Origin: a bacterium
GTDB lineage: Bacteria > UBA8248 > JACPRG01 > G963555815
DNA: 64,000 bases
Assembly (NCBI GenBank): GCA_965218795.1
Contig: OZ244653.1
Coordinates: 4,634,472-4,698,471, forward strand
Direction: 5' to 3'
The translations under genes were made by a program, and so were the position numbers. Of this stretch, positions 22,826 to 38,536 are shown one piece after another. Each line of letters starts with the position of its first letter. Within the stretch, counting starts at the first letter, position 1. Below the pieces are notes generated by a model, which made no database searches, was not told the origin of the DNA, and saw only the letters and a list, made by a program, of their open reading frames with translations.

Positions 22826-22983
22826 AAGCGGCCCGGCGTGCCTGGCGTCGCTTCGGCAAGGGCAATCACCCTGCGGCGCTGAACGTTGGGGACTGCTTGG
22901 CCTATGCGCTCGCCGATGCGACGGGCTAGCCGCTGCTGTTCAAGGGCGAGGACTTCGCCCAAACCGATATCGGGCCGGCGTGA
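22826..22983 (+). pseudogene. VapC (PIN-domain toxin) C-terminal remnant with an in-frame TAG
   Basis: Translates as [51 protein letters not shown]. This is the conserved VapC C-terminus (G.H.A.LN.GDCF.YALA...PLLFKG.DF..TDI). No N-terminal part and no VapB are present. Confidence 0.6.
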
Positions 22984-23203
22984 TCGAGAAAACGGGCCGG
23001 AGAACGGAAATGACGATGACTGAGCGGGAATGGATGCCTCAGCGATCGCGAATCCACGTGGATGACCGCCGCATCATTTCGCTTGGGTCAGCGCATCATG
23101 CAATAGGCTGATTCAGACTGCCACCGCAGAGCTTGCCGACTTCCTTACGGCACATCTGCCCCCTCTCGGCGGGGATTGGTGGAAGAAGCACGTTGAAGAT
23201 CGC

Positions 23204-26200
23204 TTGAGTTTCCAGCAACAGCGTACGGTGCGGGAGCGCGAGCTCACGACGCTGGAGCAACTGGACTTTGCCGCCCTGCTGCGAGTTCTTGACCAGAACT
23301 GGCACGAGCTTTCTCAGGTGCTCAGTCTGCCTCGCGAAGGACGCACATGGGTCAAGGAGCTGCAAACGGTACGTAACAAGTGGGCGCATCTATCGGCCCA
23401 GACCATGGAGGCGAGTGAAGTCTATCGTGATGCCGATACCCTCGGCCGTCTCCTCGATATGCTGGGCGCTGCTCCGGAATCCGCCGCAGCGGTTGAGGCC
23501 GCGAAGACGGATGCTCTTGCAAGTATGGCGACCGCCCGCGGCGTGATGGCCGGTTCTTCGGAGCCTGCCGAGGGGACAGGCGAACCAGCCGTTGAGGAGA
23601 CAGCGCAGGGTGGCGGATCCGGATCGTCGGGACCTCCTGAGACAATGTTCCAGGTCGGTAGCTTGGTCGCGCTGCGATCCGATCCGGCGATTGTCATGCC
23701 GGTCATCGAGGTCGTGCCGAGTGGGGCCGAATGTCGCTACCGTGTATTTCAGGACACCAGGAAGGTTACCTACTACGAGAGCCAGCTACGACATCCCGAG
23801 CAGACCGAGGAAGCGCAGCCCCGACCGAGCGCGGCGGACCTGCGCGCGTACCTGACGAGCCTGCATCTGCTCTCGCCCTCGACGGCCAACCTTCATTCGC
23901 TGCGCTCGGGGCGTATTCAGTTCGTGCCTTACCAGTACCGCCCCGTGCTGAAGTTGATCCGGGCGGATCGGCCGCGTCTGCTCATCGCCGATGAGGTCGG
24001 CGTCGGCAAGACGATCGAGGCCGGCCTGATCATCAAGGAGCTGCGGGCGCGCATGGACATTTCCTCCGTGCTCGTCATCTGCCCGAAGGCATTGGTCTCC
24101 GAGCGCAAGTGGTTCGTGGAGATGAAGCGCTTCGACGAACACTTCACGGCGCTCGATGGTCCGATGCTGCGCCACAGTCTGCGGGAAACGCATCTGGAAG
24201 GCGAGTGGCCGGACCAGTACGCCAAGGCGATCGTCCCGTTCTCGCTGTTCGATTCGGACCTGCTCTTCGGGAAGGATAGGGAGGGTCGCCTAAAGAGCGA
24301 GGGGCTACTCGCCCTCGACCCGCCGCCGAAGTTCGACCTCGTGATCGTCGACGAAGCGCACCATATCCGCAATCCGGAAACGTACCTCCACCAGGGCGTG
24401 CGCTACTTTTGCGACAACGCGCAGGCCGCCATCTTTCTTACCGCTACGCCGGTCCAGTTGGGCAGCGAGGATCTCTTTACGCTGCTCAACGCACTCCGGC
24501 CGGACCTGGTGATCGACCGTCCGAGCTTCGAACAGATGGCCGCGCCCAATCGGTCCATCAACATGGCCGTGCAGCATTGCCGTTCCGCCAAGGAGGACTG
24601 GCAAGGGCAAGCGCGGGCGTGCCTGGATGAGGCCGCGCAAACGCAATGGGGCAGCCTGTTTGTGCGGGAGTCACCGGCTTTTCAGAACATCTACGACCGG
24701 CTGGGAGGAGAGCAGGTCGATGACGCGGATCGCATCGGCATCGTCCGGTCTCTGGAGGAGCTCTATACCTTCAGCCCGATGATCAACCGGACGCGCCGCA
24801 GGGATATCGGCGAGTTCACGACTCGAAGGCCGGAGACGCTGACGACCGAGTTCACGCCCGAGCAGCAGCGCCTGCACGACGATCTGATCGATGTCGTGGC
24901 CCGTATCCTGGCGTTTGCGCACGGACAGCAGAACGTCAAGTTCATGATGACCACGATTCGCCGCCAGGCGGCGAGCTGTCTGTATGGACTGGCGCCCCTG
25001 CTGCGCAGCATCCTCGCCGGCAAGCTGGATGGCCTTGAGACGATGGAAGCGGGCGATGTCGAGGGCGAAGCCGATCTCGGCTTCCTCGCCGAGGCGCGGA
25101 GCGATATCGAGGCGCTTCTGGAGAGAGCCGACAGCCTCGATCCGCGGGACCCGAAGGTTGATGCTTTTGTCCAGGTTCTGCGCGACAAGAGCCGAATGGC
25201 CAACAACAAGGCCCTGGTGTTCAGCACCTTCCGGCACACGCTTGCGTATATCGCAAGGCACACGGAAGACGCGGGATTGCGCTACGGGCTTGTGCATGGT
25301 GACGTGGCGGACGAGGAGCGGGCGGACTTGCGCCGCCGGTTCGCGCTGCCGAAGGAAGACCCGGACGCGCTGGATGTATTGCTCTCCTCGGAGGTCGGCG
25401 GCGAAGGGCTCGATTTTCAGTTCTGCGACCTGTTGATCAACTACGATCTGCCCTGGAACCCGATGCGCGTCGAGCAGCGCATCGGGCGCATCGACCGCTA
25501 CGGTCAACAGAGCGAGGCCGTTGCCGTCGTCAATCTGGTTACGCCTGGCACGGTGGATGCCGATATCTACGAACGCTGCCTGTTGCGCATCGGCGTGTTC
25601 CAGCACGCGGTCGGCGGCAGCGAGGAGATTCTTGGCGAGATAACCCGTGAAATCCATGATGTCGCGGAGAGCTTCACGCTTACGGCCGAGGAACGCGCGC
25701 AGCGCTTACAGCAGCTCGGCGACAACGGGATTCGGCAAATTCAGGAAGAGCAGGCGCTTGAGGAAAAACAGGCCGAGCTATTCGGGTTGACGGTTCCGAA
25801 ACAATCCTGGCGTCAGGAGATCGAGGCCGCCGAGAGTTTCTGGCTGTCGCCAAGCGCCTTGCAGCGCTGCGTCTCGACCTATCTCTCCGGGCTGATGGAA
25901 ACCGGGGGGGAGTTTTTTCTCGGCGAGAAGCCGCTCAAGACACTGAGGTTGAATCAGGGGGCCCGGGCCAAGCTGCTTGAGGACTTCAAGCGTCAGCCCC
26001 GTTCGACCGACCCGGTGGCCCGGCAATGGGAAAAGTGGCTCAAGGGCACCGGTCCGATGCTGTCGGTCACGTTCGATCAGGAAACCACCGCGGCCGTCCC
26101 CGACGCCGTTCACCTGAACGGCCTTCACCCTCTGGTGCGCCAAGCGGCCCGGTTCCAGGAACGTTCCGAGGTTGCCCGCGTCAGCCTGACCGCATCGAGC

Positions 26201-26698
26201 GAGAGTCTGCCGGCAGGCGAGTACCCGTTCGCGCTTTACCGCTGGCGCAAGGTCGGGGTGCGAACCGACGAAGCGCTGCTCGCGATCAGTACCGAGCCGG
26301 CAATGGACGACGCCATCATGTCATTGCTGGAGGAGGCCGGCGACGCGCGCGCTGAAATACGGGATGCCGATGAAGCCCTGGATGCGCTCGATCATCGGCA
26401 CCATGACGAATGGAGCGTCGCGCGAGCGAACCACGTGGCGGAGAACCGGGAGTTGGTCCAGCATCGCCTCCAAAGCCTGAAGGTCAGCCATCAGGCCCGA
26501 TGCAGGCTGCTTGAGGACCAGGTTCAACGAGCGACCGATGACAGGATTCGCCGCATGAAGGAGTCCGAGCTGGCGAGAGCCGGATATGACTGCGAGCGGA
26601 GGGTTGCGGAATTGGAGGAAGCGGCGAACAGCGCGGACATTCACGCTACACAGGTTGTGTTTGGGATGCTCACCGTGACCATGAGCGACATGAGATGA
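23204..26698 (+). CDS. Large SNF2-family (SF2) helicase with N-terminal Swt1-like HEPN-type domain
   Basis: 1164 aa. The N-terminal roughly 110 aa carry an R-x4-H motif (VRNKWAHLSAQ) in a helical context, followed by an Ala/Gly/Glu-rich linker. The SNF2 ATPase core has Walker A ADEVGVGKTIEAG, DEAH box DEAHHIRN and LTATPVQ. The Helicase_C region includes ...LLSSEVGGEGLDFQ...NPMRVEQRIGRIDRYGQ. The stop overlaps the next start (ATGA). Confidence 0.8.
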   Translation: MSFQQQRTVRERELTTLEQLDFAALLRVLDQNWHELSQVLSLPREGRTWVKELQTVRNKWAHLSAQTMEASEVYRDADTLGRLLDMLGAAPESAAAVEAAKTDALASMATARGVMAGSSEPAEGTGEPAVEETAQGGGSGSSGPPETMFQVGSLVALRSDPAIVMPVIEVVPSGAECRYRVFQDTRKVTYYESQLRHPEQTEEAQPRPSAADLRAYLTSLHLLSPSTANLHSLRSGRIQFVPYQYRPVLKLIRADRPRLLIADEVGVGKTIEAGLIIKELRARMDISSVLVICPKALVSERKWFVEMKRFDEHFTALDGPMLRHSLRETHLEGEWPDQYAKAIVPFSLFDSDLLFGKDREGRLKSEGLLALDPPPKFDLVIVDEAHHIRNPETYLHQGVRYFCDNAQAAIFLTATPVQLGSEDLFTLLNALRPDLVIDRPSFEQMAAPNRSINMAVQHCRSAKEDWQGQARACLDEAAQTQWGSLFVRESPAFQNIYDRLGGEQVDDADRIGIVRSLEELYTFSPMINRTRRRDIGEFTTRRPETLTTEFTPEQQRLHDDLIDVVARILAFAHGQQNVKFMMTTIRRQAASCLYGLAPLLRSILAGKLDGLETMEAGDVEGEADLGFLAEARSDIEALLERADSLDPRDPKVDAFVQVLRDKSRMANNKALVFSTFRHTLAYIARHTEDAGLRYGLVHGDVADEERADLRRRFALPKEDPDALDVLLSSEVGGEGLDFQFCDLLINYDLPWNPMRVEQRIGRIDRYGQQSEAVAVVNLVTPGTVDADIYERCLLRIGVFQHAVGGSEEILGEITREIHDVAESFTLTAEERAQRLQQLGDNGIRQIQEEQALEEKQAELFGLTVPKQSWRQEIEAAESFWLSPSALQRCVSTYLSGLMETGGEFFLGEKPLKTLRLNQGARAKLLEDFKRQPRSTDPVARQWEKWLKGTGPMLSVTFDQETTAAVPDAVHLNGLHPLVRQAARFQERSEVARVSLTASSESLPAGEYPFALYRWRKVGVRTDEALLAISTEPAMDDAIMSLLEEAGDARAEIRDADEALDALDHRHHDEWSVARANHVAENRELVQHRLQSLKVSHQARCRLLEDQVQRATDDRIRRMKESELARAGYDCERRVAELEEAANSADIHATQVVFGMLTVTMSDMR

Positions 26699-28939
26699 GC
26701 GTCATTGAAGAAATCCGTCGAAGGAGAGAAAAGCTTCTCGATGCCTTGAAGACGAATCCTGAGATTCAGATTCGCAAGGTGGTCGAGGACATATACCCCG
26801 ATCGAGTACATTTCATATACGAGCTTCTCCAGAACGCCGAGGATACGGGCGCGTCCGAGGTCAGATTCGATCTCTCCGAAAAGAAGCTTGTGTTCGAACA
26901 CGATGGGCGGTCCTTTGATAAAGCGGACATCGAAGCCATTACGGGTATAGGCACCGGAACCAAGAAGGACGATGGCGACAAGATCGGCCGTTTCGGCATC
27001 GGATTCAAGGCGGTCTTTGCCTATACGGAGACGCCGCGCATCTGGTCGCCGACGTTCAGTTTCGAAATCTCGGACTTGGTGTTGCCGAACGAAATTGAAT
27101 CAGTTTCTTCACTTGGTGGAAAGACGCGGTTCGAGTTCCCGTTCGACTCCCCGAAGAAGCCGGCGTCGGATGCATTTCCAGAAATTCGGGATGGACTCGA
27201 AGGAATATCGGAAACCACGCTGTTGTTCCTCTCCCATATCGAATCGATTCACTGGCAAGTAGATGGCGGTTCGGAAGGACGCTTGTTGCGAATCTCGCAC
27301 CCCGATCATCACGTTGAGATACTGAGGGAGAGAGATGGCAAGGCGACGAAAAGTTCGCACTTCCTCCGATTTACGCAACCCGTCGAGGGACTGGAACTGC
27401 AACACGTCGCCATCGCGTTCGCGCTCGAAGCGTTACCGGCCGCAAGCAGATTCGACGCGGCCAAGCCCTTGGCGAAACAGTTCCGAATCGCACCGGTCGT
27501 GCCGGGGCGCGTCGCGGTTTACTTTACCGCCGAGAAGGAGACGTCGGGACTGCGTTTCCATCTCCATGCGCCCTTCGTGCCCGAACTCAGCCGCGCCAGC
27601 ATCAAGGACACGCCGGCGAACGAACCGCTGTTTCAGCAGTTGGCGGAGCTTGCGGCGCGTTCCCTGTTTGCGATCCGCGATCTCGGTTTTCTGAACACCG
27701 ATTTTCTCTCGGTGCTGCCGAACCCGAATGACGTTCTCCCCGACAGATACGAATGCATACGCGATGCCATCGTCGATGAGATGAATGAGCAACCGCTGAC
27801 GCCCACCCATGCGAAGACTCATGCGCCCGCCACGCAACTGCTACAGGCGAGAGCGTCTCTGAAGACCCTCTTGGCCAAGGAAGATATCGAGATTCTCGTC
27901 GACTTCGAGGAGACGCCGCTTGCCTGGGCGATTGGCGCAACTCAGAAGAACAGCGACATTGACCGCTTTCTCTCTGGCTTGGCTATCAGGGATTGGGACA
28001 TTAAACAGTTCGTGGAGAGGTTGGTAGAAGGGTTAAGCAGTAAGCCGAGATTTTCTCATGACGGCACAAAATTTCTTACCGAGCCTGATAAGACGTTGCT
28101 TCAGTGGTTGCGGTCGAAATCCGATGATTGGCACCAAACACTGTACGCGCTTCTCAATGGGAAAGAATCAGAGGGAGCTGCGTCCCGACTGAAGTATTCC
28201 TACATCGTTAGTCTCTCTACCGGCGATTATATAGTTGGCAACGAATGCTACTTTCTTACGGAGGACGTTCAAGAGGACACAATGCTACCGAGGGTAGCGA
28301 TCGGTACTTACACTTCGGGAAGGAACAGAAAGGAGCAGATACAGGCTAAAGAATTTCTTGAATCCATCGGCGTTCGTGAGGTAGGCGAGCGTGAACAAGT
28401 CGAGGCCATTCTCAAGCAGCGATACTCGAAAGAAGCCGAAATACCTGACAAGAAAACGCATAAGAACGATCTGAGACGCTTCATTTCGTTGGTGGAGAAC
28501 GATCCAAAGGCGACTTGTCTCTTTAAGGATTACTTTATATTTGAGCTGGCTGACGACCAATGGAGACAGCCTGCTCAGGCACGTTCTGCAATAACCCCTT
28601 CGGTAACACCAGTTGCACAATCCTGCCGCGTATCGCAACCGGGCGCGACGATGCCCGGGAGACCGAACTGGCGGGAGGCAGCCTCGAGGAACTGGACCGC
28701 GAGCAATTGCCGCCCTGCGTGGACGAACATGCCACCATCATGGCGCCGTTCGCGTTGCCGATGGTCAAGAACCATCCCTACGCGAAATCGGCCGAACAGA
28801 CGCACGGTCATTTCGCCCCCACCCCTTACACGATCCAGCCCTATTCAGCGGCGGCCATTCCGTTCCACTGGATGCTGAAAGAGCAGGCCGAGGGCAACGA
28901 GGAGTTCGGCGTTCCGAGCAGGGCCGAGGATCTCAAGCT
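26695..28939 (+). pseudogene. Sacsin-like GHKL (HATPase_c) ATPase, frame break near 28555 and 3' end cut by IS1380
   Basis: N-terminal ...VHFIYELLQNAEDTGASEVRFDLSEKKLVFEHDGRSFDKADIEAITGIGTGTKK...GRFGIGFKAVF is the sacsin/bacterial GHKL signature. From about 28555 the annotated frame turns Arg/Pro/Ser-rich, while the adjacent frame stays protein-like (...HFAPTPYTIQPYSAAAIPFHWMLKEQAEGNEEFGVPSRAEDLKL) up to the IS boundary at 28940. Confidence 0.65.
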
Positions 28940-30645
28940 GGGCTATCCTGGATATCTCACAAAGAAAGAGAGCCAAGCCGGTTTTTTTCGGGTAAACTCT
29001 TTTTGATCAACGGGTTGCCCGAAGAAAGGAGACCGACTTGACTCGCACACAGAGTATCGCAGAACAGATGGAATTCCAAGGGTTGGGTTCTCGGCGTGTG
29101 ATCGCCACTTCCAACGGCGGGGCGATCACCTCTGATGCGGGCGGTCTTTTGCTACGCGACACCGAGGGGCGGGTGAAGCTGATCGCAGGCTTCGCGGCCT
29201 GTTTTGAGGACGGTCGGGACGCGAGGCGGGTGGAACATGAGTTGGGGGCGTTGTTGCGGCAGCGGGTGTACGCGCTGGCGCTTGGCTATGAGGACGTCAA
29301 CGACCACGAGCGGCTTCGCTTTGACCCGATGCTCCAGATCCTCTCGGGCAAGCTGGAGGCCACGCGGCGCAAGGGGGGTCCGGCCCTTGCGGGCAAGAGC
29401 ACGCTGAACCGTTTGGAGCGTCTTGCGGGCGATGGCGATGAGCGCTACCACAAGATCGCCTACCGAGGCGAGGCGATCGACCGGCTGTTGGTGGACAACT
29501 TCCTTCGGTCGCAGAGGCGGGCGCCGGGTCGGATCGTTTTGGACATCGACGCCACCGACGACCCGGTGCACGGCTGTCAGAAGGGGCGTTTCTTCCACGG
29601 CTATCACGGTCATTACTGCCACCTTCCGCTTTACATCTTCTGCGGGGATTTCCTTTTGTGCGCTCGGCTTCGGCCCTCCAATATCGACGCCTCCTCGGGG
29701 GTGGTGGAAGAGTTGGAGCGGATCGTTGCCCAGATTCGGGCACGCTGGCCGCAGGTGTCGATCCTGCTTCGGGCGGATTCGGACTTCTCGCGCGAGTGGA
29801 TCATGGCCTGGTGCGAGGCGCAGGGGGTGGATTACGTGTTCGGCCTGGCCAAGACCTCCCGGCTGCAGGAAGCGGTGAAGGACGAGCTGGCCGAAGCGAA
29901 GGCGCGTCATCAGAGCACGGGGAAGGGGGCGCGGTTATTCCGGTCGTTTCCTCACCGGACGCTTACATCCTGGAGCCGGGTGCGGCGGGTGGTCGCCAAG
30001 GCCGAGCACCTGGCCAAGGGCGCCAATCCGCGCTTCATCGTGACTTCGCTGGACGAGGAGGCGATCGACGCGAAGCCTCTGTACGAGCGCATCTACTGCG
30101 CCCGGGGGACGATGGAGAACCGGCTCAAGGAGCAGCAGCTCGACCTGTACGCGGACCGGACGTCGTGCACGCGGATGCGCTCCAATCAGTTGCGGCTCTA
30201 CCTGTCGGCGGTGGCCTATGAACTGATGCATGCGTTGCGTCGGCTAGGCCTTCGGGGGACGGCGTTTGCAAAGGCAACGTGTGGAACGGTGCGGACGCGG
30301 CTGCTGAAGATCGGGGCGCAGGTTCGGGTGAGCGTGCGGCGGGTGCACGTGGCCCTTGCGACGGGTTATCCGTACATGAATGTGTTCTTCCACGCCTGGC
30401 GGAACCTGCGCGCGGGGCCGGAGGGAGAGCCCGCCGTCTAAGACAGATTGCAAAATGAACGCGCAGGGAGTCGAGGCAAACGTGCGTGCGGAGCCGAGCC
30501 AAATCGGCCAAAAAGCCCCTCTCACGGGTCAACTCCAACCACCCACCGGCCCTGGCATCCACCGCAAAAGCGACAGACAGGAAAAAACACTCCAATTCAC
30601 ACCCGATAATCCATCCGCCGAGTGGGTGGTGAGAAATGCGGGCTA
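28940..30645 (+). mobile_element. IS1380-family insertion sequence, copy 1 (about 1.7 kb, one transposase gene)
   Basis: A roughly 1.7-kb block identical to 33440-35144. Boundaries come from where the two copies diverge from their flanks. The ends are imperfect inverted repeats (...ggatatctcac / gtgagaaatgc...). No target-site duplication is evident. Confidence 0.8.
29038..30441 (+). CDS. IS1380-family DDE transposase
   Basis: 467 aa with a TTG start. Size, the single-ORF layout and motifs (..ILLRADSDF.., ..YCARGTMENRLKE..) are typical of IS1380-family transposases. Confidence 0.85.
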   Translation: MTRTQSIAEQMEFQGLGSRRVIATSNGGAITSDAGGLLLRDTEGRVKLIAGFAACFEDGRDARRVEHELGALLRQRVYALALGYEDVNDHERLRFDPMLQILSGKLEATRRKGGPALAGKSTLNRLERLAGDGDERYHKIAYRGEAIDRLLVDNFLRSQRRAPGRIVLDIDATDDPVHGCQKGRFFHGYHGHYCHLPLYIFCGDFLLCARLRPSNIDASSGVVEELERIVAQIRARWPQVSILLRADSDFSREWIMAWCEAQGVDYVFGLAKTSRLQEAVKDELAEAKARHQSTGKGARLFRSFPHRTLTSWSRVRRVVAKAEHLAKGANPRFIVTSLDEEAIDAKPLYERIYCARGTMENRLKEQQLDLYADRTSCTRMRSNQLRLYLSAVAYELMHALRRLGLRGTAFAKATCGTVRTRLLKIGAQVRVSVRRVHVALATGYPYMNVFFHAWRNLRAGPEGEPAV

Positions 30646-31166
30646 GGTCCACGTCCTTCATTGCCAAGTCCGAAGCAGATTCATGCCCACCTAACCGCAC
30701 CTTCACACGCCTTTCGAATGCATTTGAGCATCCCTCACTTCTGGCCGTGTAGGGGAGAACACCCACCGACGTATGCGGGCGTTCTCCCATCGTGAATGAT
30801 GGCGTATAGCGTAAATGCTTTTTCTGTGTAGATTTACCAACAGCCGAAAGGCTGATTTTCCCAACGGCCATAAGCCTCCATCTCTGCGCTTCGTTCTATT
30901 TGTGGCCGATGAGAGTTATTACTTCCAGTTATTTGGATCATTGCATTTTTCGTTACTAATTCTTTTTTTTATTAACGCCAGTTCATATGATTGCCCTGCA
31001 CAAGCACCTATGATCGGTTAAATCCCTATCATCCAGAGAGCGGTGACCCTCGCCGAGGACATTGCAGCGGTGGAGACGCGAATCCAGACGCCGACGGGCT
31101 TTCACTGCGGCTTCTTCGCCGTTCGCACACCATGATATACTAACCGATCTTATACGTTGGCAGGGA

Positions 31167-32834
31167 CTACTTCTTTTTGGTAGCAGGGGCCTCTTTCGCA
31201 GGGCGGGGTACCAGGCCTTGTGCCAGATTGCTCTGTCCGAGGATTGCCGCAGCACCGGCGAGTCCGCTTCCCGCGCCTTGCACCAGGACATTGGGAACCT
31301 TCACAAGTGCTGGATTCTTTACGGCAGCAGCCAGCATTTTTTCGAGCAATGCCAGTTGCAATACGCGATCCTGTCCCAGAACTTCGGCCTGGGCCCTCTG
31401 GCCGGCGGCGATTTCCAGGAGGCGAAGCTTTTCCCCCTCGCCCTGCAGCTTGGCAGCCCGTTTTCGCTGTTCGGCGACCTTCACCGCAATCTCAGCCGCA
31501 ACCAGTTGCGGTTGTCTGTCCGCCCGCGCTCTCGTATTCTCGGTCTTGATCCGCTCCTGTTGCGCTTCTTGCTCTCTTTGATAGGTTCTCCTCAAAAGCT
31601 CGGCAAGCTGTTCACGTCGCCGGGCGACCAACAATTCAGGAGGAATGATGGGCTCGCCAAAACGGACTTCTCGAATAGAAAGACCTGCCTTCTGGCCTTC
31701 CGGCTGAATTCTTTTCTCCACCCGTGACTCAATTTCCGCTCGTTGCTCTTGAAGGTCCAGAACCTTGCGTCCCTTTGCGCCAACGACATTTCTTATGACG
31801 CTTCGGATCGCCGGCGTCAGAACTTTATCCTCGACCTCTTTAATCCCGCCAACCGAGGCGACGACGAAGGGAGCGTCTTCGGGTGTTACCTGGCCCAAAA
31901 CCCGGAGCTCAAGCGGGACATCCCATCCTTCAATACGGGCCATGATGGCATCCACCGCATTAGGGGGAACAGGAATGTCCCGGCGTCTTTCTCTCTGAGT
32001 GATTTTCCCCTCTTGATCCACGGATAGGTCGATATAGCGCCGCAGATATCCACCTTTGTATGTCCATGCATGGATGAGGGTGCTGATGATTGTGACTTCA
32101 TAGGCACGATGGTTTAAATAATACTTTCCGGGAAAGAGCGGCTCGCTCCAAACGCCGATACAGTTTTTCGAAACAAGCGGAACCGAAATGAAGGCTTCCC
32201 GTCCAGTCGTCATGCGCTTGCAATCTTTTATCGCCTGGACGTTTGACTTGACCACGCCGACTTCGCCGGCCCGGATGCTTGTCGCATTACCCTGCTTGAC
32301 CTCAAACAAATACTGATTGACGCGGTATCGTCCGGGTTTCAACACCGTCAGTTGAGGACCCTTCTGCCCTCCTTTCTTCAGGAAGTACGCCGCATCCTGA
32401 ACCATCTTTACGAACTCGCGCTCCGGCCATCTATCGGAGAGAAACTGTTCTTTTCTCAGTGAACGGCCATCTCGGGCGGTAACAAATCCGTATTTCCCCT
32501 CGGGGATCTCCAAGATGGACTTCTGCTCAACGTCGTGAATGACGTTGAGCAAAGGTCGGAAATGGAACCCCGGAGGCAAAATCTCCGCTTGGGGGCCCTT
32601 CTCTCCGTTTGCGGCGATGATCCTCCCTGGAGGCAGAGACCTTCCAAAATAAATTTTCTTGAGGTGGCCGACCTCATCCGCACCGATATGCACGTATGAG
32701 GTGGAGAATACGAGAAACACGGCGATTATTCCTAACACAGCTCTCAGGGCCATCCTTGAGGCTGCATCAGGAATTCTTCGAGGAACAAATACTGCGGCCA
32801 CAAGAAGCACGATTGCAAAGAGCACCCACGTCAT
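31167..32834 (-). CDS. Flotillin / SPFH (band-7) family membrane protein (YqiK-like)
   Basis: 555 aa. N-terminal TM segment, SPFH domain, then a long Glu/Arg/Ala/Gln-rich coiled-coil tail (..EQRKRAAKLQGEGEKLRLLEIAAGQRAQAE..). GC content is clearly lower than the surroundings. Confidence 0.8.
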   Translation of the reverse strand: MTWVLFAIVLLVAAVFVPRRIPDAASRMALRAVLGIIAVFLVFSTSYVHIGADEVGHLKKIYFGRSLPPGRIIAANGEKGPQAEILPPGFHFRPLLNVIHDVEQKSILEIPEGKYGFVTARDGRSLRKEQFLSDRWPEREFVKMVQDAAYFLKKGGQKGPQLTVLKPGRYRVNQYLFEVKQGNATSIRAGEVGVVKSNVQAIKDCKRMTTGREAFISVPLVSKNCIGVWSEPLFPGKYYLNHRAYEVTIISTLIHAWTYKGGYLRRYIDLSVDQEGKITQRERRRDIPVPPNAVDAIMARIEGWDVPLELRVLGQVTPEDAPFVVASVGGIKEVEDKVLTPAIRSVIRNVVGAKGRKVLDLQEQRAEIESRVEKRIQPEGQKAGLSIREVRFGEPIIPPELLVARRREQLAELLRRTYQREQEAQQERIKTENTRARADRQPQLVAAEIAVKVAEQRKRAAKLQGEGEKLRLLEIAAGQRAQAEVLGQDRVLQLALLEKMLAAAVKNPALVKVPNVLVQGAGSGLAGAAAILGQSNLAQGLVPRPAKEAPATKKK

Positions 32835-32847
32835 CGCACCCCTCCTT

Positions 32848-33069
32848 CTAGAACGGGTTGTCGGTTCTTTGATACCAAGCGGGAATTTCCCATTTCAACT
32901 TGGACCGAATCCCCTCTGGTCTCGTTTGGAGCTTGAACTTAAATTCACCATTCCGCAGCACCCGGATTGAAACCACGTCTCGCAATTCTGATAGCAGCAT
33001 GATCTTCCTTATAATTATTGGCTGTAGATCTGAAAAGCAGCGAAATAAAAATTGGAAGGATGCGACCAT
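32848..33069 (-). CDS. Small protein immediately upstream of flotillin (possible NfeD-like OB-fold partner)
   Basis: 73 aa. Its stop is 14 bp before the flotillin start, in a low-GC region. Assignment rests on position only. Confidence 0.3.
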   Translation of the reverse strand: MVASFQFLFRCFSDLQPIIIRKIMLLSELRDVVSIRVLRNGEFKFKLQTRPEGIRSKLKWEIPAWYQRTDNPF

Positions 33070-33439
33070 CTTCCATTATGACGTAACCTTAGTCCTCGCT
33101 GGCATTAACGCACGTCTCCTTTCTTTTTAGATATCAGAAGTGCCATCTTGTTAATCGATCCCAAGCTCTCTCGATTGATTTCATGATCCTCAATCGTTAT
33201 TACCGGAATTTCCCATATCAAATCCGGACAGGCCTGTACCGACCCCTCGTTGCTGTTTAACTCAATTAGACCCCTCTCTATCCGGACCTGTCAATCCCAT
33301 TTCAGGTGCCTGAAACCTTAATCGGAGCGTTATCCACCATTGAAAATCATGCCACCCCTCCGGGTAGGCGAGCCTTCCCAGCAGGTCATCTGGAAGGGAC
33401 AGAACATTCACCATTTTGTCCTCGAGTGGACTGCGCCAA

Positions 33440-35144
33440 GGCTATCCTGGATATCTCACAAAGAAAGAGAGCCAAGCCGGTTTTTTTCGGGTAAACTCTT
33501 TTTGATCAACGGGTTGCCCGAAGAAAGGAGACCGACTTGACTCGCACACAGAGTATCGCAGAACAGATGGAATTCCAAGGGTTGGGTTCTCGGCGTGTGA
33601 TCGCCACTTCCAACGGCGGGGCGATCACCTCTGATGCGGGCGGTCTTTTGCTACGCGACACCGAGGGGCGGGTGAAGCTGATCGCAGGCTTCGCGGCCTG
33701 TTTTGAGGACGGTCGGGACGCGAGGCGGGTGGAACATGAGTTGGGGGCGTTGTTGCGGCAGCGGGTGTACGCGCTGGCGCTTGGCTATGAGGACGTCAAC
33801 GACCACGAGCGGCTTCGCTTTGACCCGATGCTCCAGATCCTCTCGGGCAAGCTGGAGGCCACGCGGCGCAAGGGGGGTCCGGCCCTTGCGGGCAAGAGCA
33901 CGCTGAACCGTTTGGAGCGTCTTGCGGGCGATGGCGATGAGCGCTACCACAAGATCGCCTACCGAGGCGAGGCGATCGACCGGCTGTTGGTGGACAACTT
34001 CCTTCGGTCGCAGAGGCGGGCGCCGGGTCGGATCGTTTTGGACATCGACGCCACCGACGACCCGGTGCACGGCTGTCAGAAGGGGCGTTTCTTCCACGGC
34101 TATCACGGTCATTACTGCCACCTTCCGCTTTACATCTTCTGCGGGGATTTCCTTTTGTGCGCTCGGCTTCGGCCCTCCAATATCGACGCCTCCTCGGGGG
34201 TGGTGGAAGAGTTGGAGCGGATCGTTGCCCAGATTCGGGCACGCTGGCCGCAGGTGTCGATCCTGCTTCGGGCGGATTCGGACTTCTCGCGCGAGTGGAT
34301 CATGGCCTGGTGCGAGGCGCAGGGGGTGGATTACGTGTTCGGCCTGGCCAAGACCTCCCGGCTGCAGGAAGCGGTGAAGGACGAGCTGGCCGAAGCGAAG
34401 GCGCGTCATCAGAGCACGGGGAAGGGGGCGCGGTTATTCCGGTCGTTTCCTCACCGGACGCTTACATCCTGGAGCCGGGTGCGGCGGGTGGTCGCCAAGG
34501 CCGAGCACCTGGCCAAGGGCGCCAATCCGCGCTTCATCGTGACTTCGCTGGACGAGGAGGCGATCGACGCGAAGCCTCTGTACGAGCGCATCTACTGCGC
34601 CCGGGGGACGATGGAGAACCGGCTCAAGGAGCAGCAGCTCGACCTGTACGCGGACCGGACGTCGTGCACGCGGATGCGCTCCAATCAGTTGCGGCTCTAC
34701 CTGTCGGCGGTGGCCTATGAACTGATGCATGCGTTGCGTCGGCTAGGCCTTCGGGGGACGGCGTTTGCAAAGGCAACGTGTGGAACGGTGCGGACGCGGC
34801 TGCTGAAGATCGGGGCGCAGGTTCGGGTGAGCGTGCGGCGGGTGCACGTGGCCCTTGCGACGGGTTATCCGTACATGAATGTGTTCTTCCACGCCTGGCG
34901 GAACCTGCGCGCGGGGCCGGAGGGAGAGCCCGCCGTCTAAGACAGATTGCAAAATGAACGCGCAGGGAGTCGAGGCAAACGTGCGTGCGGAGCCGAGCCA
35001 AATCGGCCAAAAAGCCCCTCTCACGGGTCAACTCCAACCACCCACCGGCCCTGGCATCCACCGCAAAAGCGACAGACAGGAAAAAACACTCCAATTCACA
35101 CCCGATAATCCATCCGCCGAGTGGGTGGTGAGAAATGCGGGCTA
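33440..35144 (+). mobile_element. IS1380-family insertion sequence, copy 2 (identical to copy 1, same orientation)
   Basis: Sequence identity with 28940-30645 begins and ends at these coordinates. The right end runs straight into the truncated helicase gene. Confidence 0.8.
33537..34940 (+). CDS. IS1380-family DDE transposase (copy 2)
   Basis: Protein identical to the 29038-30441 product. Confidence 0.85.
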   Translation: MTRTQSIAEQMEFQGLGSRRVIATSNGGAITSDAGGLLLRDTEGRVKLIAGFAACFEDGRDARRVEHELGALLRQRVYALALGYEDVNDHERLRFDPMLQILSGKLEATRRKGGPALAGKSTLNRLERLAGDGDERYHKIAYRGEAIDRLLVDNFLRSQRRAPGRIVLDIDATDDPVHGCQKGRFFHGYHGHYCHLPLYIFCGDFLLCARLRPSNIDASSGVVEELERIVAQIRARWPQVSILLRADSDFSREWIMAWCEAQGVDYVFGLAKTSRLQEAVKDELAEAKARHQSTGKGARLFRSFPHRTLTSWSRVRRVVAKAEHLAKGANPRFIVTSLDEEAIDAKPLYERIYCARGTMENRLKEQQLDLYADRTSCTRMRSNQLRLYLSAVAYELMHALRRLGLRGTAFAKATCGTVRTRLLKIGAQVRVSVRRVHVALATGYPYMNVFFHAWRNLRAGPEGEPAV

Positions 35145-38100
35145 TACGGCCGAGCGCGAGCCGGACCTCGGTTTCACCACCAGTTGGGTACAGGAAGGCA
35201 CGAACCAACGCGTGCTGCTGGACACGTTCTTCAGCGCCGCCAGGCCGGATCAATCGCTCGTCTTTTTTTACGCGAAACGCACACCGATGGCGGAAGACGT
35301 CCGCCGCGTGATTGTTGGCGTCGGGCGTGTGAAAACCATTGGCGCGGCGACAGCGTATCGCGACGTCGTCGGCACCCGGCCGAATAGCAAGATCAATGGC
35401 TACCTGTGGGAACGCAATATCGAGCACTCGATACGCCCTGATGGTACGGACGGATTTCTGCTGCCTTATCGCGAACTGATCGCACTCGCCGAAGACGATG
35501 CCAGTCTCGATCTCGGTGCCTGCACCGCTTTTGCCCCGGACGAGTACTTTGAACAGTACTCCTATGGCAGCGAGCTGCTGCCGCAGGATGGCGCCATTGC
35601 CTCATTGCTGGCGCTGGAGAAGGCAATTAAGTCCATGCGTAGCCTGCTCGAGGCACCCTGGGCGGAGTACCTTCAGTGGATAGACCGAGAGCTTAACCGG
35701 CTATGGCAGGTGCGCGGCGCCTTCCCCGGCCTCGGCGCGACCCTGCATGCGTTCGGCCTGCCACATGGGAATCTGTTGGTGTGGCACCTGGTGGGCGACA
35801 GCGAGAAAGCCATCGACCCGTGGCCTGTATTGACTGCGGCACTCAAAAAGCCGTCGTCCCTGCCGGAATACCTCCGCGACGGCATTGGCAAAACCCAGCA
35901 ACAGAAGTGGGAAAAACTTCCGGACTCGCGCCGCGCGTTGCCGGACTCGCGCCGCGCGTTGCTGATGCTGTTGGCGCGGTTCAACCTGACCAATGTTCAG
36001 GCGCTGCGGTGGTATCAGGAGACCGAGAGGGACAGCGCAGGCATCACGCTCGACGACAAGGATATCCTGGCCAACCCGTACACGATCTATGAAGCTGATC
36101 GTCTTCAAGCGGACCCCATTGCATTCGCGGTGATTGACCGCGGCATGTTCCCCCCGGAGCCGCTGCGCAAGGATTTCCCGACCCCCGAGCCCAGCAGGGT
36201 GCATGAGGCGATAGACCCGCGACGCGTGCGCTCGGCAATGATCCAGACGCTGGAAGACGCGGCCGGTGAGGGGCACACACTGATACCGGCCTCCTGGCTG
36301 ATCCAGCGCGTGCGTGCGCGGCCCATGAAACCAGAGTGTCCCGTAGATGCAGACACGCTTGCTGTCGTGGGAGACAGCCTGGAACCATTGATTACGACAG
36401 TCAATCTGGAAACAGAGGACGATGCGTTTCAGCTCGATCGCTATGTCGAAACGTCGAAGCTGATCGGCGCTGCGATTACGAAGCGCAGAAACGGCAAGGC
36501 AAACGGCGGTGAATCCGATTGGGCCGCGTTGGTTAATGAGGCGATTGATGAGGGGAAAAAGAAATCCGCACTTACCGCTGACGACAAAAAGGCACGTCAG
36601 GAAAAGGCTGCTGCGCTGAAAGAATTGTACCGGGGCCGGGTTTGCTTATTGATGGGATCTGCCGGTACCGGTAAGAGTACATTGCTGAAAGCCCTATGCC
36701 GCATCGATGCAGTGTTTAAAGGCGGCATCCTGTTGCTCGCCCCTACCGGCAAAGCGCGCGTCAGACTCGAACAAGCCAGCGGCATGGCCGGCCAGGGGAA
36801 AACCGTCGCGCAATTCCTGAACGGATTGCAGCGTTACGATGGCAATACCGGACGTTATTACGTCAATACCGACGCTCCTCGCTCATCGGCGCATAAGACC
36901 GTCGTGATCGACGAATGCTCGATGCTGACCGAAGAGCAGCTCGCGGCTCTACTTGACGCCGTCAAGGGTGTTGAGCGTTTGATCCTGGTTGGCGATCCGA
37001 AGCAGTTGCCGCCGACCGGAGCCGGACGCCCCTATGTGGACATCGCGCAATGCCTGAAGCCCGACAACATCGACAGTTTGTTCCCGCGCGTCGCTTCCGG
37101 ATATGCCGAACTGACAGTAACCATGCGGCAGGAGACCACAGGCGATGCGGCACGTGTGGATGTGCTTCTGGCCAATGCATTCAGTGGGCGCGCGCTGGAT
37201 GCTGGCGCCGACGAGGTGTGGCACGCGGTTACGGCTGGGGAAACCCGATTTGTGAAGTTGGTACGCTGGAATCAGCCGGACCAATTGCAAAAGCTACTGC
37301 TAGCTGAATTGGCGGCAGTACTCGGATTGAAATCCGCCGATGATGAAATCGGCTTTGAGGAATCCATCGGTGGCACGGCTTCCGAGTACAACGGCCAGAC
37401 CAATATCTTCTTCAACACGCGCTACAAGGCGCTCTCTGGGGCTGCGGAAAAGGCCGAGCAATGGCAAATCCTAACCCCAGTCCGCCAGAACCAGACAGGT
37501 GTACTGGCGCTGAACCGCGCCATTCAACAGCAGTTTCGTAAACGTTTCCTTGATCTCGCGGTACGTTCGGGGTCCCAGAAAAGGATCATCACGAGTCCTG
37601 CCGGGCCGGAAAGCATCATTTACGGCGACAAAGTGATCAATATCGTCAATAGCAGTCGCCGTGGTGTCTACCCTGACAAAGACGACCGTTATGTTGCCAA
37701 CGGCGATATCGGGGTGGTGACCGGGCACCGGCGCACGAAGAAGAAAGACTGGAAGCCGGTGGAGGTTGAAGTTGAACTGGCCTCGCAACCGGGGTTTGTC
37801 TACAAGTACAAATCATGGGAATTCGACGCCCAGGAGAGTTCCCCGCCCCTGGAGTTGGCCTATGCGCTGACCATCCACAAGACGCAAGGCAGCGAATTCG
37901 GCACGACGTTTTTGGTGATTCCCAATCCCTGCCGGGTACTCAGCCGGGAAATGCTGTACACGGCATTAACGCGGCACATGGGAAGAGTCATCATTCTCCA
38001 TCAGGGTGATTTCCGCGAGCTGCAACGCTTCAGCCATGATGAGGCGTCGGAAGTCGCGCGACGCATGACGAACCTGTTCAGGCCGTCGCGACCTGTAGAA

Positions 38101-38520
38101 GTGCGAATCAGCAACCAGTCGGTGTTCCTTGACAGCAACCTGATTTATTGGACTGAGCGCGGTGAACTGGTGCGCTCCAAGTCTGAATGGATCATCGCCG
38201 ACAAGATGCATGCCGCCGGCATCGACTATCAATATGAACAAGCTTTGCTCCTGGCAGGCATTGAACGTTTCCCGGACTTCACCATCGTAGATGACGATAG
38301 TGGGAGCACCTGGTACTGGGAGCACAATGGCATGCTCAGCAACAAGGATTACCTCAAGCGTTGGGATCGCAAGCTGGCTGCCTACCGAGAGCAAGATATT
38401 CTGCGGTTAGAAGAAGGTGGCGGGAAGAACGGCACCTTGCTGGTCACAGAAGAGCAAGCAGGCACCGGGCTCGACGCCGGGCACATACAAAGCAATATCG
38501 ATGCGATTCTGGCGGGATAA
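35145..38520 (+). CDS. RecD-like SF1 helicase (AAA_30 / UvrD_C_2 type) with C-terminal endonuclease-like domain, 5'-truncated by the IS
   Basis: The annotated ORF (34879-38520) begins inside the IS right end and reads through in frame. After the junction: a beta-rich N-terminal region, Walker A LLMGSAGTGKSTLLKAL, Walker B VVIDECSML, RecD motif LILVGDPKQLPPTG, motif V/VI YALTIHKTQGSEFGTTFLVIP. The last roughly 150 aa (WIIADKMHAAGIDYQYEQ...PDFTIVDD...WYWEHNG) resemble a Vsr/PD-(D/E)xK-type nuclease fold. Confidence 0.75.
35920..35961. repeat. Perfect 21-bp tandem duplication inside the helicase gene (in-frame, LPDSRRA x2)
   Basis: ccggactcgcgccgcgcgttg repeated twice back to back. Confidence 0.8.
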
Positions 38521-38536
38521 ATGTACACCGAACAGG

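What the first reader, a model, noticed from the sequence alone, without database searches (positions are those of the whole stretch)
28940..35144. Two identical, directly oriented IS1380-family copies bracket a low-GC flotillin cassette (composite-transposon-like); right end of copy 2 forms an in-frame fusion with the helicase
Copies at 28940-30645 and 33440-35144 are identical over about 1.7 kb, which suggests very recent transposition or a shared origin. The 2.8-kb segment between them (flotillin plus a small ORF) has distinctly lower GC than everything around it. No 4-5 bp target duplications flank either copy or the composite, which suggests IS-associated deletion or recombination rather than clean insertions. 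The copy-2 right end supplies an in-frame start (34879) that reads into the truncated helicase. IS1380-family members such as ISEcp1 are known for outward promoters and one-ended mobilisation of adjacent DNA.
Basis: partly seen in the sequence, partly recalled or inferred. Interest (0 to 1): 0.6.

Follow-up and report, generated by a model that had tools for sequence, protein, structure and literature searches.

The report
SPFH-carrying IS1380 composite transposon in helicase
Two copies of an IS1380-family insertion sequence carrying a membrane-protein (SPFH) gene form a mobile composite transposon that inserted cleanly, with a 4-bp target duplication, into an already damaged candidate phage-defence helicase gene; this is an ordinary mobile-element event.

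Summary
The repeat is real: window 28941-30645 and 33440-35144 are 100% identical over 1705 bp. The insertion sequence (IS) itself is 1696 bp (28947-30642 and 33446-35141), with CC...GG ends and an IS1380-family transposase.

A 4-bp duplication, CTAT, flanks the whole IS-cargo-IS unit and lies inside the identical stretch. Related uninterrupted loci (L092, L004) carry a single CTAT in exactly the reconstructed sequence.

The helicase was not truncated by the IS. Codons 25-148 lie left of copy 1 (28578-28946) and codons 149 to the end lie right of copy 2.

The same IS-SPFH-IS unit occurs at other loci in other assemblies. One copy (L088) is complete, with its own CTAA/CTAA duplication, so the unit is a mobile composite transposon. 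Relatives of this IS insert at YTAR with 4-bp duplications (47 of 56 sites).

A separate 1952-bp deletion fused the sacsin-like GHKL gene out of frame to helicase codon 25.

The ORF starting at 34879 exists but looks like a chance read-through.

The identity extends 6 and 3 nt past the IS ends only in this assembly. That reflects gene conversion or a consensus artefact.

This is a new member of a known kind, of low interest.

The parts
28943..28946 (.). Left copy of the 4-bp target-site duplication, CTAT
   Evidence: the uninterrupted targets in L004 and L092 read CTCAAGCTGGGCTATACGG, with a single CTAT.
28947..30642 (+). IS1380-family insertion sequence, copy 1 (1696 bp). IRL is CCTGGATATCTCAC and IRR is GTGAGAAATGCGGG; 11 of 14 positions are complementary.
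   Evidence: Ends were defined by comparison with 99%-identical copies in different flanks (L005-L009, L085-L088).
29038..30441 (+). Transposase gene of copy 1 (467 aa, TTG start with an AGGAG upstream)
   Evidence: NF033539, 399 bits (cutoff 180); PF13701, 498 bits. Gene calls of 467 aa in L085-L088.
30643..33445 (.). Cargo segment X (2803 bp including the inner flanking tetranucleotides CTAG and CTAT), GC 0.521
   Evidence: It is 99% identical to the cargo in L085-L089 and L091, where the inner flanks are TTAG and TTAG.
31167..32834 (-). SPFH/Band_7 membrane protein gene (555 aa), the only recognisable cargo gene
   Evidence: PF01145, E 8e-11; over 1300 homologs of 550-580 aa; a 76% homolog stands alone with no IS in L090; no PADLOC hit.
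33203..33441 (.). About 240-bp terminal fragment of a second, different repeated element ('IS-B', end CCGGAATTTCCCAT...) into which copy 2 originally inserted
   Evidence: L087 and L093-L095 carry this end in different left flanks and continue uninterrupted through ...GAGCGGTTAG|ACAGGTAC. The downstream ORFs in L087 hit DDE_Tnp_1_4.
33446..35141 (+). IS1380-family insertion sequence, copy 2 (1696 bp); transposase gene at 33537-34940
35142..35145 (.). Right copy of the target-site duplication, CTAT
28578..28946 (+). 5' fragment of the SF1B helicase gene (PDC-S68 type), codons 25-148. The out-of-frame tail of the GHKL ORF overlaps it.
   Evidence: DNA homology to L001-L004 and L092 starts at 28577/28578. 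The protein is colinear with P0001 and P0002 through ...AEDLKLGY|TAERE.
35146..38520 (+). 3' fragment of the same helicase gene, codons 149 to the stop
   Evidence: 98.5% nt identity to the L092 helicase; family PDC-S68, 1608 bits for the homolog P0001.
34879..35145 (+). IS-derived leader of the 1213-aa read-through ORF (34879-38520). It overlaps the transposase 3' end and IRR.
   Evidence: There is no Shine-Dalgarno-like sequence before either in-frame ATG (read) and no promoter-like site.
26695..28577 (+). Truncated sacsin-like GHKL ATPase gene (first ~627 of ~1040 codons). The deletion joint is at 28577-28579.
   Evidence: homologs are 1025-1050 aa; matches only the N-terminal parts of the TmtA profiles; the window lacks L092 7022-8973.

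Best explanation
The 6195-bp unit at 28947-35141 is a mobile composite transposon. It consists of two directly oriented copies of a 1696-bp IS1380-family insertion sequence bracketing 2.8 kb of captured DNA. That DNA carries an SPFH-domain membrane protein gene plus the end of another IS.

The transposase of this IS group cuts at CC...GG ends and inserts at YTAR tetranucleotides, duplicating 4 bp. Using the outer ends of the two copies, the unit inserted at a CTAT in codons 147/148 of a roughly 1265-codon SF1B helicase gene of the candidate-defence family PDC-S68. This duplicated CTAT and split the gene without losing any bases. An equivalent route gives the same product: a solo IS inserts first, and homologous recombination then brings in IS plus cargo.

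Shown here: the anatomy, the duplication, the empty site, the other copies and the target preference.

Inferred: which route was taken. Also inferred is that the helicase is non-functional, because it had separately lost its first 24 codons in a 1952-bp deletion. The ORF reading out of copy 2 is taken to be a by-product.
For: - True IS ends come from 99%-identical copies in unrelated flanks.
- The outer flanks are CTAT and CTAT.
- Deleting 28947-35145 gives GATCTCAAGCTGGGCTATACGGCCGAG. This is identical to the uninterrupted helicase genes in L004 and L092.
- The reconstructed protein is colinear with the 1264-aa homologs, without a gap.
- The same IS-X-IS unit, 99.0-99.5% identical, occurs at other loci. 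L088 is complete, lies between a chorismate mutase gene and the atp operon, and has a CTAA/CTAA duplication. L085, L086 and L087 are decayed copies at three loci of one sample.
- An independent assembly of the very same locus (L091) has both IS copies and the cargo.
- Among 56 distinct insertion sites of this IS and its relatives, 47 have a perfect 4-bp duplication: CTAG 23, CTAA 11, TTAG 10, TTAA 1, ATAG 1 and CTAT 1.
- The native, uninterrupted TTAG target of copy 2 is seen in L087 and L093-L095.
- The transposase passes the curated IS1380 model.
Against: - Composite transposition and 'solo insertion followed by homologous recombination with IS plus cargo' give identical products and cannot be separated from sequence.
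- In this window the inner junctions differ from all six other copies. Position 30643 is C instead of T, and 33437-33445 reads CAAGGCTAT instead of TGAGAGCGGTTAG. A simple insertion does not explain this.
- CTAT is a rare target for this IS group (1 of 47 sites).
- No transposition has been observed experimentally.
Confidence: 0.85

Rival explanations
1. A solo IS first inserted at the helicase CTAT. The cargo arrived later, when a circle or another replicon carrying one IS plus X recombined homologously with that resident IS. The transposase never moved the 6.2-kb unit as a whole.
For: - The end product is identical to what is seen.
- Copy 2 alone has matching CTAT/CTAT flanks in this window.
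- IS copies here clearly recombine or convert: there are mismatched flanks at 9 of 56 sites and shared variant blocks between copies.
- The genome behind L085-L087 holds several copies of the unit that could act as donors.
Against: - L088 shows a second complete unit with its own perfect outer duplication (CTAA). The recombination route would have to have happened twice, each time at a pre-existing solo IS.
- The matching flank on the left of copy 2 is private to this assembly. The orthologous locus L091 has TTAG there.
Confidence: 0.25
2. One reading: the two copies are separate insertions or rearrangement products without target duplications. IS-mediated deletion removed the helicase 5' end, and the copy-2 right end now provides a functional start and promoter for a truncated helicase.
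For: - An open frame does run from 34879 into the helicase.
- The helicase has indeed lost its first 24 codons.
Against: - The duplication exists and the junction is base-perfect.
- The 5' loss is a separate deletion 370 bp upstream of the IS, joined by 3-nt microhomology to the GHKL gene.
- No promoter-like site or ribosome-binding site precedes the fusion start.
- An 88-codon open stretch in 63% GC DNA has roughly an 8% chance expectation (my calculation from base composition).
- The fusion product would lack the conserved N-terminal 148 residues, including the Cys-rich CxxPCGNTSC segment conserved in all homologs inspected.
Confidence: 0.04
3. Assembly artefact: only one IS copy exists at this locus, and the second copy, or the cargo's placement, is a mis-join of repeats.
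For: - The two copies are identical even 6 nt and 3 nt beyond the true IS ends.
- The inner junction sequence is a hybrid seen in no other copy.
- Together these show that at least the consensus near the repeats may have been affected.
Against: - The independent assembly L091, from a different sample, has the same helicase-IS-X-IS-GHKL order.
- L088 and L089 confirm the IS-X-IS arrangement elsewhere.
Confidence: 0.03
4. ISEcp1-style one-ended transposition: a single IS mobilised adjacent DNA using a surrogate end, and the second copy is incidental.
For: - This behaviour is known for the family member ISEcp1 (from my own knowledge of the literature).
- In L087 the cargo carries only one full IS.
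Against: - In the window, L088 and L091 the duplicated tetranucleotide lies outside two complete copies, not at an IS end plus a surrogate end.
- The single-IS copies (L085, L086) retain remnants of the other copy, truncated by further insertions.
- In L087 the far side of the cargo continues into native IS-B sequence, so it looks like a precursor or a rearranged state, not a transposition unit.
Confidence: 0.03

Closest known systems
IS1380 family insertion sequences (IS1380, ISEcp1 and relatives)
   Same: - The DDE transposase passes the curated family model.
- It is a single-ORF element of about 1.7 kb.
- It has short imperfect terminal inverted repeats beginning with CC.
   Different: - It is not a named element as far as these tools show. 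There was no hit in PLSDB plasmids.
- The nearest copies are in unclassified MAGs.
- This subgroup shows a strict YTAR target preference. That resembles IS5 rather than what I recall for ISEcp1 (5-bp, AT-rich targets).
- There is no evidence here for an outward promoter or for one-ended mobilisation.
Classical composite transposons (for example Tn10, Tn5 or IS26-bounded units)
   Same: - Two copies of one IS bracket passenger DNA.
- The unit is flanked by a single target duplication.
- The unit recurs at several loci.
- The flanking copies are homogenised.
   Different: - The copies are in direct orientation.
- The cargo is an SPFH membrane protein gene of unknown role, not a resistance or catabolic gene.
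- The cargo includes a fragment of a second IS.
IS5 (target YTAR, 4-bp duplication)
   Same: The target consensus (CTAG, CTAA, TTAG) and the duplication length are the same as those I recall for IS5.
   Different: The transposase family is different: IS1380/DDE_Tnp_1_4 rather than the IS5 group. The resemblance is in target choice only.
PADLOC candidate defence gene PDC-S68 (the target gene)
   Same: The full-length homolog P0001 matches the PDC-S68 profile end to end (1608 bits). It has an SF1B RecD-like core with large N- and C-terminal extensions.
   Different: In this window the gene is broken three ways: a 5' deletion, the transposon at codon 148 and a 21-bp in-frame duplication. PDC-S68 is a candidate, not a demonstrated defence system.

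Membership tests
IS1380 family | Transposase matches the family model above its curated cutoff | tested here: met
   NF033539, 399 bits against a cutoff of 180. PF13701, 497.8 bits against 34.7.
IS1380 family | Element of about 1.5-2.1 kb with one transposase ORF and short terminal inverted repeats beginning with CC | tested here: met
   The element is 1696 bp. IRL is CCTGGATATCTCAC and the reverse complement of IRR is CCCGCATTTCTCAC, matching at 11 of 14 positions. The family ranges are from memory of ISfinder.
IS1380 family | Target-site duplication of 4-5 bp | tested here: met
   CTAT/CTAT in the window and CTAA/CTAA in L088 for the unit. CTAG/CTAG for solo copies L006 and L008. Overall 47 of 56 relatives have perfect 4-bp duplications.
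Composite transposon | Two copies of the same IS bracket passenger DNA, and the whole is flanked by one target duplication | tested here: met
Composite transposon | An uninterrupted (empty) target site exists in relatives and equals the flanks minus one duplication copy | tested here: met
   L004 and L092 carry GATCTCAAGCTGGGCTATACGG.
Composite transposon | The unit is found at independent sites, showing mobility | tested here: met
   It occurs at the window/L091 locus, L088, L085, L086 and L087, with different outer flanks. Actual transposition has not been observed.
ISEcp1-type transposition unit | A single IS plus adjacent DNA ending at a surrogate right end, flanked by a 5-bp duplication | tested here: not met
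   Two complete copies are present and the duplication is 4 bp at the outer IS ends. None of the 56 sites has a 5-bp duplication.
ISEcp1-type outward promoter | A promoter in the IS right end that drives the downstream gene | tested here: inconclusive
   The consensus scan found no sigma-70-like site on the plus strand in 34700-35200. This needs transcript mapping.
Flotillin (as opposed to a generic SPFH protein) | SPFH domain plus a flotillin-specific C-terminal domain or a family model hit | tested here: not met
   There is only a partial PF01145 hit (residues 306-426, E 8e-11), no NCBIfam hit, and the best PDB match is QmcA at E 0.006. It is best called an SPFH-domain membrane protein.
PDC-S68 (PADLOC candidate) | Full-length match to the PDC-S68 profile | tested here: met
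   For the intact homolog P0001 (93% identical): 1608 bits over residues 9-1262. The window's copy is interrupted and 5'-deleted.
Sacsin-like GHKL ATPase (PADLOC TmtA-like) | N-terminal sacsin ATP-binding domain within a protein of about 1030-1050 aa | tested here: not met
   The domain is present (NF047352, 99 bits). However, only the first ~627 codons remain, and the last 100 residues of the 727-aa ORF are an out-of-frame read of helicase DNA.

The most novel reading that the evidence does not exclude
The SPFH cargo is not a passive hitch-hiker. The unit has reached at least three loci in one sample's assembly (probably one genome) and at least three further assemblies because the membrane protein gives a selectable benefit, for example envelope stress tolerance or interference with phage or defence. 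Its landing in a defence gene on a conjugative element would then be part of a defence/counter-defence turnover. Alternatively, the read-through ORF from copy 2 yields an N-terminally truncated, deregulated helicase.
Probability: 0.07. Interest if true: 0.45.

Novelty: new member of a known kind. Interest (0 to 1): 0.2.

Why it matters
The main value is as a correction. The locus is not an IS-driven deletion or a gene fusion. It is a textbook clean insertion whose duplication was hidden inside the repeat.

It documents an unnamed IS1380-family element with a strict YTAR, 4-bp target rule, and a composite transposon whose cargo is an SPFH membrane protein. It also shows stepwise decay of a three-gene helicase/GHKL/helicase candidate defence module on a conjugative element.

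None of this changes current understanding. It is useful for annotating this genome and for cataloguing the IS.

Tried and rejected
1. Exact-product look-ups of the transposase (both start variants) and of the SPFH protein found nothing. The window's contig is in the protein collection (P0121, P0361; 5.17-Mb contig) but not in the position index.

2. The PLSDB plasmid searches with the IS (megablast) and with the cargo (blastn) gave no match.

3. I first read the GGCTA at all four IS junctions as a 5-bp duplication. I considered that the cargo had inserted into an IS tandem dimer (IS-CTAT-IS), or that the IS prefers GGCTAN. Both were rejected. Other copies place the ends at CC...GG with 4-bp duplications. 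The positions upstream of the target vary. The GGCTA repeats around the cargo are private to this assembly, and the canonical inner flanks are TTAG/TTAG.

4. I considered that the cargo was once a circle, with an IS inserted at TTAG and then cointegrated. This was rejected. The native sequence to the right of that TTAG is IS-B DNA (ACAGGTAC...), not the cargo's left end. Equal tetranucleotides are also expected in about a third of cases given the target bias.

5. A literature search for the family's target rule and for 'TmtA' gave nothing usable.

6. The 102-aa ORF upstream of the SPFH gene has no Pfam hit and is frameshifted in the window. It is probably not a gene, and it overlaps the IS-B end.


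Full report
**The observation**

A direct repeat with a 4499-bp offset is present. Window 28941-30645 equals 33440-35144 over 1705 bp without a mismatch. Identity drops to background (0.23-0.24) immediately outside, and there is no third copy in the window.

Each copy holds a 467-aa ORF (29038-30441 and 33537-34940). The ORF scores 399 bits on the curated IS1380-family model (cutoff 180) and 498 bits on PF13701.

Between the copies lies a minus-strand ORF of 555 aa (31167-32834) with a partial SPFH/Band_7 hit. The only solved relative is QmcA, at E 0.006, and there is no NCBIfam or PADLOC hit. 'SPFH-domain membrane protein' is therefore safer than 'flotillin'.

The cargo's GC is 0.521, against 0.629 for the IS and 0.646 for the window. 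The neighbouring GHKL gene is just as low at 0.533.

**True ends of the IS and the hidden duplication**

A scan of one genome per species found five full copies 99% identical in DNA (transposase 98% identical) in one MAG (L005-L009), plus dozens of relatives with 52-58% transposase identity. Aligning them shows that the element is CCTGGATATCTCAC...GTGAGAAATGCGGG. That places it at window 28947-30642 and 33446-35141, a length of 1696 bp.

The 1705-bp identity therefore overshoots the IS by 6 nt on the left (GGCTAT) and 3 nt on the right (CTA). With the right ends in hand, the flanks are as follows:

| Copy | Left flank | Right flank |
|---|---|---|
| Copy 1 | CTAT | CTAG |
| Copy 2 | CTAT | CTAT |
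| Whole unit (outer pair) | CTAT | CTAT |

Across 56 distinct insertion sites of this IS and its relatives, 47 have a perfect 4-bp duplication: CTAG 23, CTAA 11, TTAG 10, TTAA 1, ATAG 1 and CTAT 1. None has a 5-bp duplication. This subgroup therefore inserts at YTAR and duplicates 4 bp.

**The target is the helicase gene itself, cleanly split**

The tail of the 'GHKL' ORF (after about 28577) translates to low-complexity Arg/Pro/Ser/Trp-rich sequence. Another frame reads ...HWMLKEQAEGNEEFGVPSRAEDLKLGY up to the IS.

Joining 28560-28945 to 35145-38520 gives a 1253-aa protein. Hundreds of roughly 1264-aa homologs cover it at 99-100%. The junction ...AEDLKLGYTAEREPDLGF matches P0002, which reads ...AEDLKLGYTAEHEPDLGF.

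At the DNA level, the uninterrupted genes in L004 and L092 read GATCTCAAGCTGGGCTATACGGCCGAG. This is identical to the window's left flank plus right flank with one CTAT. The blastn alignment crosses the junction without a gap.

The insertion lies at codons G147/Y148 of a roughly 1265-codon gene. The homolog P0001 matches the PADLOC candidate single-gene system PDC-S68 end to end at 1608 bits.

**The unit is mobile**

Close variants of the SPFH protein led to other copies of the same IS-X-IS arrangement, at 99.0-99.5% nucleotide identity.

- **L088** is complete. It sits between a chorismate mutase gene and the atp operon, with outer flanks CTAA/CTAA.
- **L085, L086 and L087** are three loci in one sample. 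In each, one copy is truncated or rearranged by further IS insertions. Their outer flanks are CTAG.
- **L089** is a short contig showing both inner junctions.
- **L091**, from yet another sample, is the same locus as the window at 99.66% identity. It has both IS copies and the cargo in place. This disposes of the repeat-duplication artefact worry.

In all these copies the inner flanks are IRR|TTAG...X...GAGCGGTTAG|IRL.

A 76%-identical SPFH homolog stands alone, without any IS, in L090. DNA similarity there is confined to the coding region.

**Origin of the cargo**

A metagenome scan with the cargo's right end found three further contigs (L093-L095). In them, and in L087, the last ~240 bp of X (window 33203-33441) form the terminus of another repeated element (CCGGAATTTCCCAT...) sitting in different left flanks. 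That element continues uninterrupted through ...GAGCGGTTAG|ACAGGTAC.... In L087 the continuation encodes DDE_Tnp_1_4 fragments.

Copy 2 therefore originally inserted at a TTAG inside a second IS next to the SPFH gene, and copy 1 inserted at a TTAG beyond the gene's 3' end. The cargo was not a circle.

**What is odd in this window only**

Relative to L091 and every other copy, the window differs at the inner junctions:

- Position 30643 is C rather than T, giving CTAG instead of TTAG.
- Positions 33437-33445 read CAAGGCTAT rather than TGAGAGCGGTTAG.

Both changes move the inner flanks toward the outer flank sequences. CAAGGCTAT is the helicase left flank CAAGCTGGGCTAT minus four bases.

Both window copies also share private variants at IS positions 107, 635 and 674, which are absent from all other copies.

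Two readings fit: real gene conversion between the copies running a few bases into the flanks, or a consensus artefact. The artefact could arise, for instance, if reads from cells that had lost the cargo by IS-IS recombination pulled the polished sequence toward the solo-IS junctions. I cannot decide between these without reads.

In either case, '100% identity' is weak evidence for a very recent event. In L088 the two copies share a 15-variant block, so the copies are homogenised in other assemblies too.

**The older lesion**

L092 carries the intact arrangement: SNF2 helicase, then sacsin-like GHKL (1041 aa), then a 640-bp spacer, then the helicase (1265 aa).

- Window 22828-28579 aligns to L092 1264-7021 (92.8%).
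- Window 28577-38534, minus the transposon, aligns to L092 8974-12711 (98.5%).

So 1952 bp are missing at a 3-nt microhomology. This removed the last ~400 codons of the GHKL gene (homologs are 1025-1050 aa), the spacer and helicase codons 1-24, and joined the two genes out of frame.

L091 shares this deletion. Its order relative to the transposon insertion is unknown.

**The fusion ORF**

The ORF from 34879 is real as an open frame. It begins within the transposase 3' end and has no Shine-Dalgarno-like sequence before either in-frame ATG (read). No promoter-like site was found in the IS right end. Its product would lack the conserved first 148 residues.

From base composition I estimate about an 8% chance that any given frame stays open for 88 codons here. 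I regard the ORF as a by-product, subject to transcript mapping.

**Verdict**

This is an ordinary but well-documented composite transposon of a new IS1380-family element, cleanly inserted into an already decaying candidate defence gene. It is a new member of a known kind.

Noticed in passing
window 28577-28579 (joint); L092 7022-8973 (missing segment): A 1952-bp deletion at a 3-nt microhomology fuses the sacsin-like GHKL gene (codon ~627 of ~1040) out of frame to codon 25 of the helicase. The 727-aa 'GHKL' ORF therefore ends in about 100 residues of mistranslated helicase DNA.
   Followed up: yes
window 23204-38520; L092 2558-12697: A HEPN(Swt1)-SNF2 helicase (DrmD-like, sub-threshold), a sacsin-like GHKL ATPase (TmtA-like) and a PDC-S68 helicase are adjacent in the same order in L092. 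In L001-L004 the PDC-S68 helicase stands alone next to other defence or mobile genes. The three may or may not form one system.
   Followed up: partly
window 35920-35961: A perfect 21-bp tandem duplication sits inside the helicase. It is in frame and repeats PDSRRAL. It is present in the window and L091 but absent from L092 and P0001.
   Followed up: partly
window 38976-43852 (minus strand): A TrwC-type relaxase (979 aa) and a TrwB/TraG-type coupling protein (646 aa) lie immediately downstream. GC rises from about 0.55 to 0.70 at about 38.6 kb. The defence genes appear to sit at the edge of an integrative conjugative or plasmid-like region. There are no tRNA genes in the window.
   Followed up: partly
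L091, equivalent of window 35132-35156: In the independent assembly of the same locus, 25 bp are missing across the copy-2 right end: the last 10 nt of IRR, CTAT and 11 nt of the helicase. If real, this would immobilise that end. Coverage there is only 4x, so it may be an error.
   Followed up: no
L005, L007, L009, L077 (positions ~630-2409): Four copies of the IS in one MAG share the same left flank (809-1778 bp). That flank is a frameshifted, different IS1380-family element in the same orientation ending ...GTTTAG. Their right flanks differ (TCGA, TTAA, TCAA) and do not fit YTAR. This may be a hybrid unit moving with a different left end.
   Followed up: partly
L086 10174-11519: An IS3-family element (~1.3 kb, rve/HTH_Tnp_1 genes) has inserted into the cargo 17 bp from the IS right end. 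L085 likewise has copy 1 truncated at the equivalent of window 30081 by other transposase genes. The unit is itself a target for further insertions.
   Followed up: no
window 33105-33410 (minus strand): A 102-aa ORF is called upstream of the SPFH gene in L088 and L089. It is frameshifted in the window, has no Pfam hit and overlaps the IS-B end fragment, so it is probably not a gene.
   Followed up: partly
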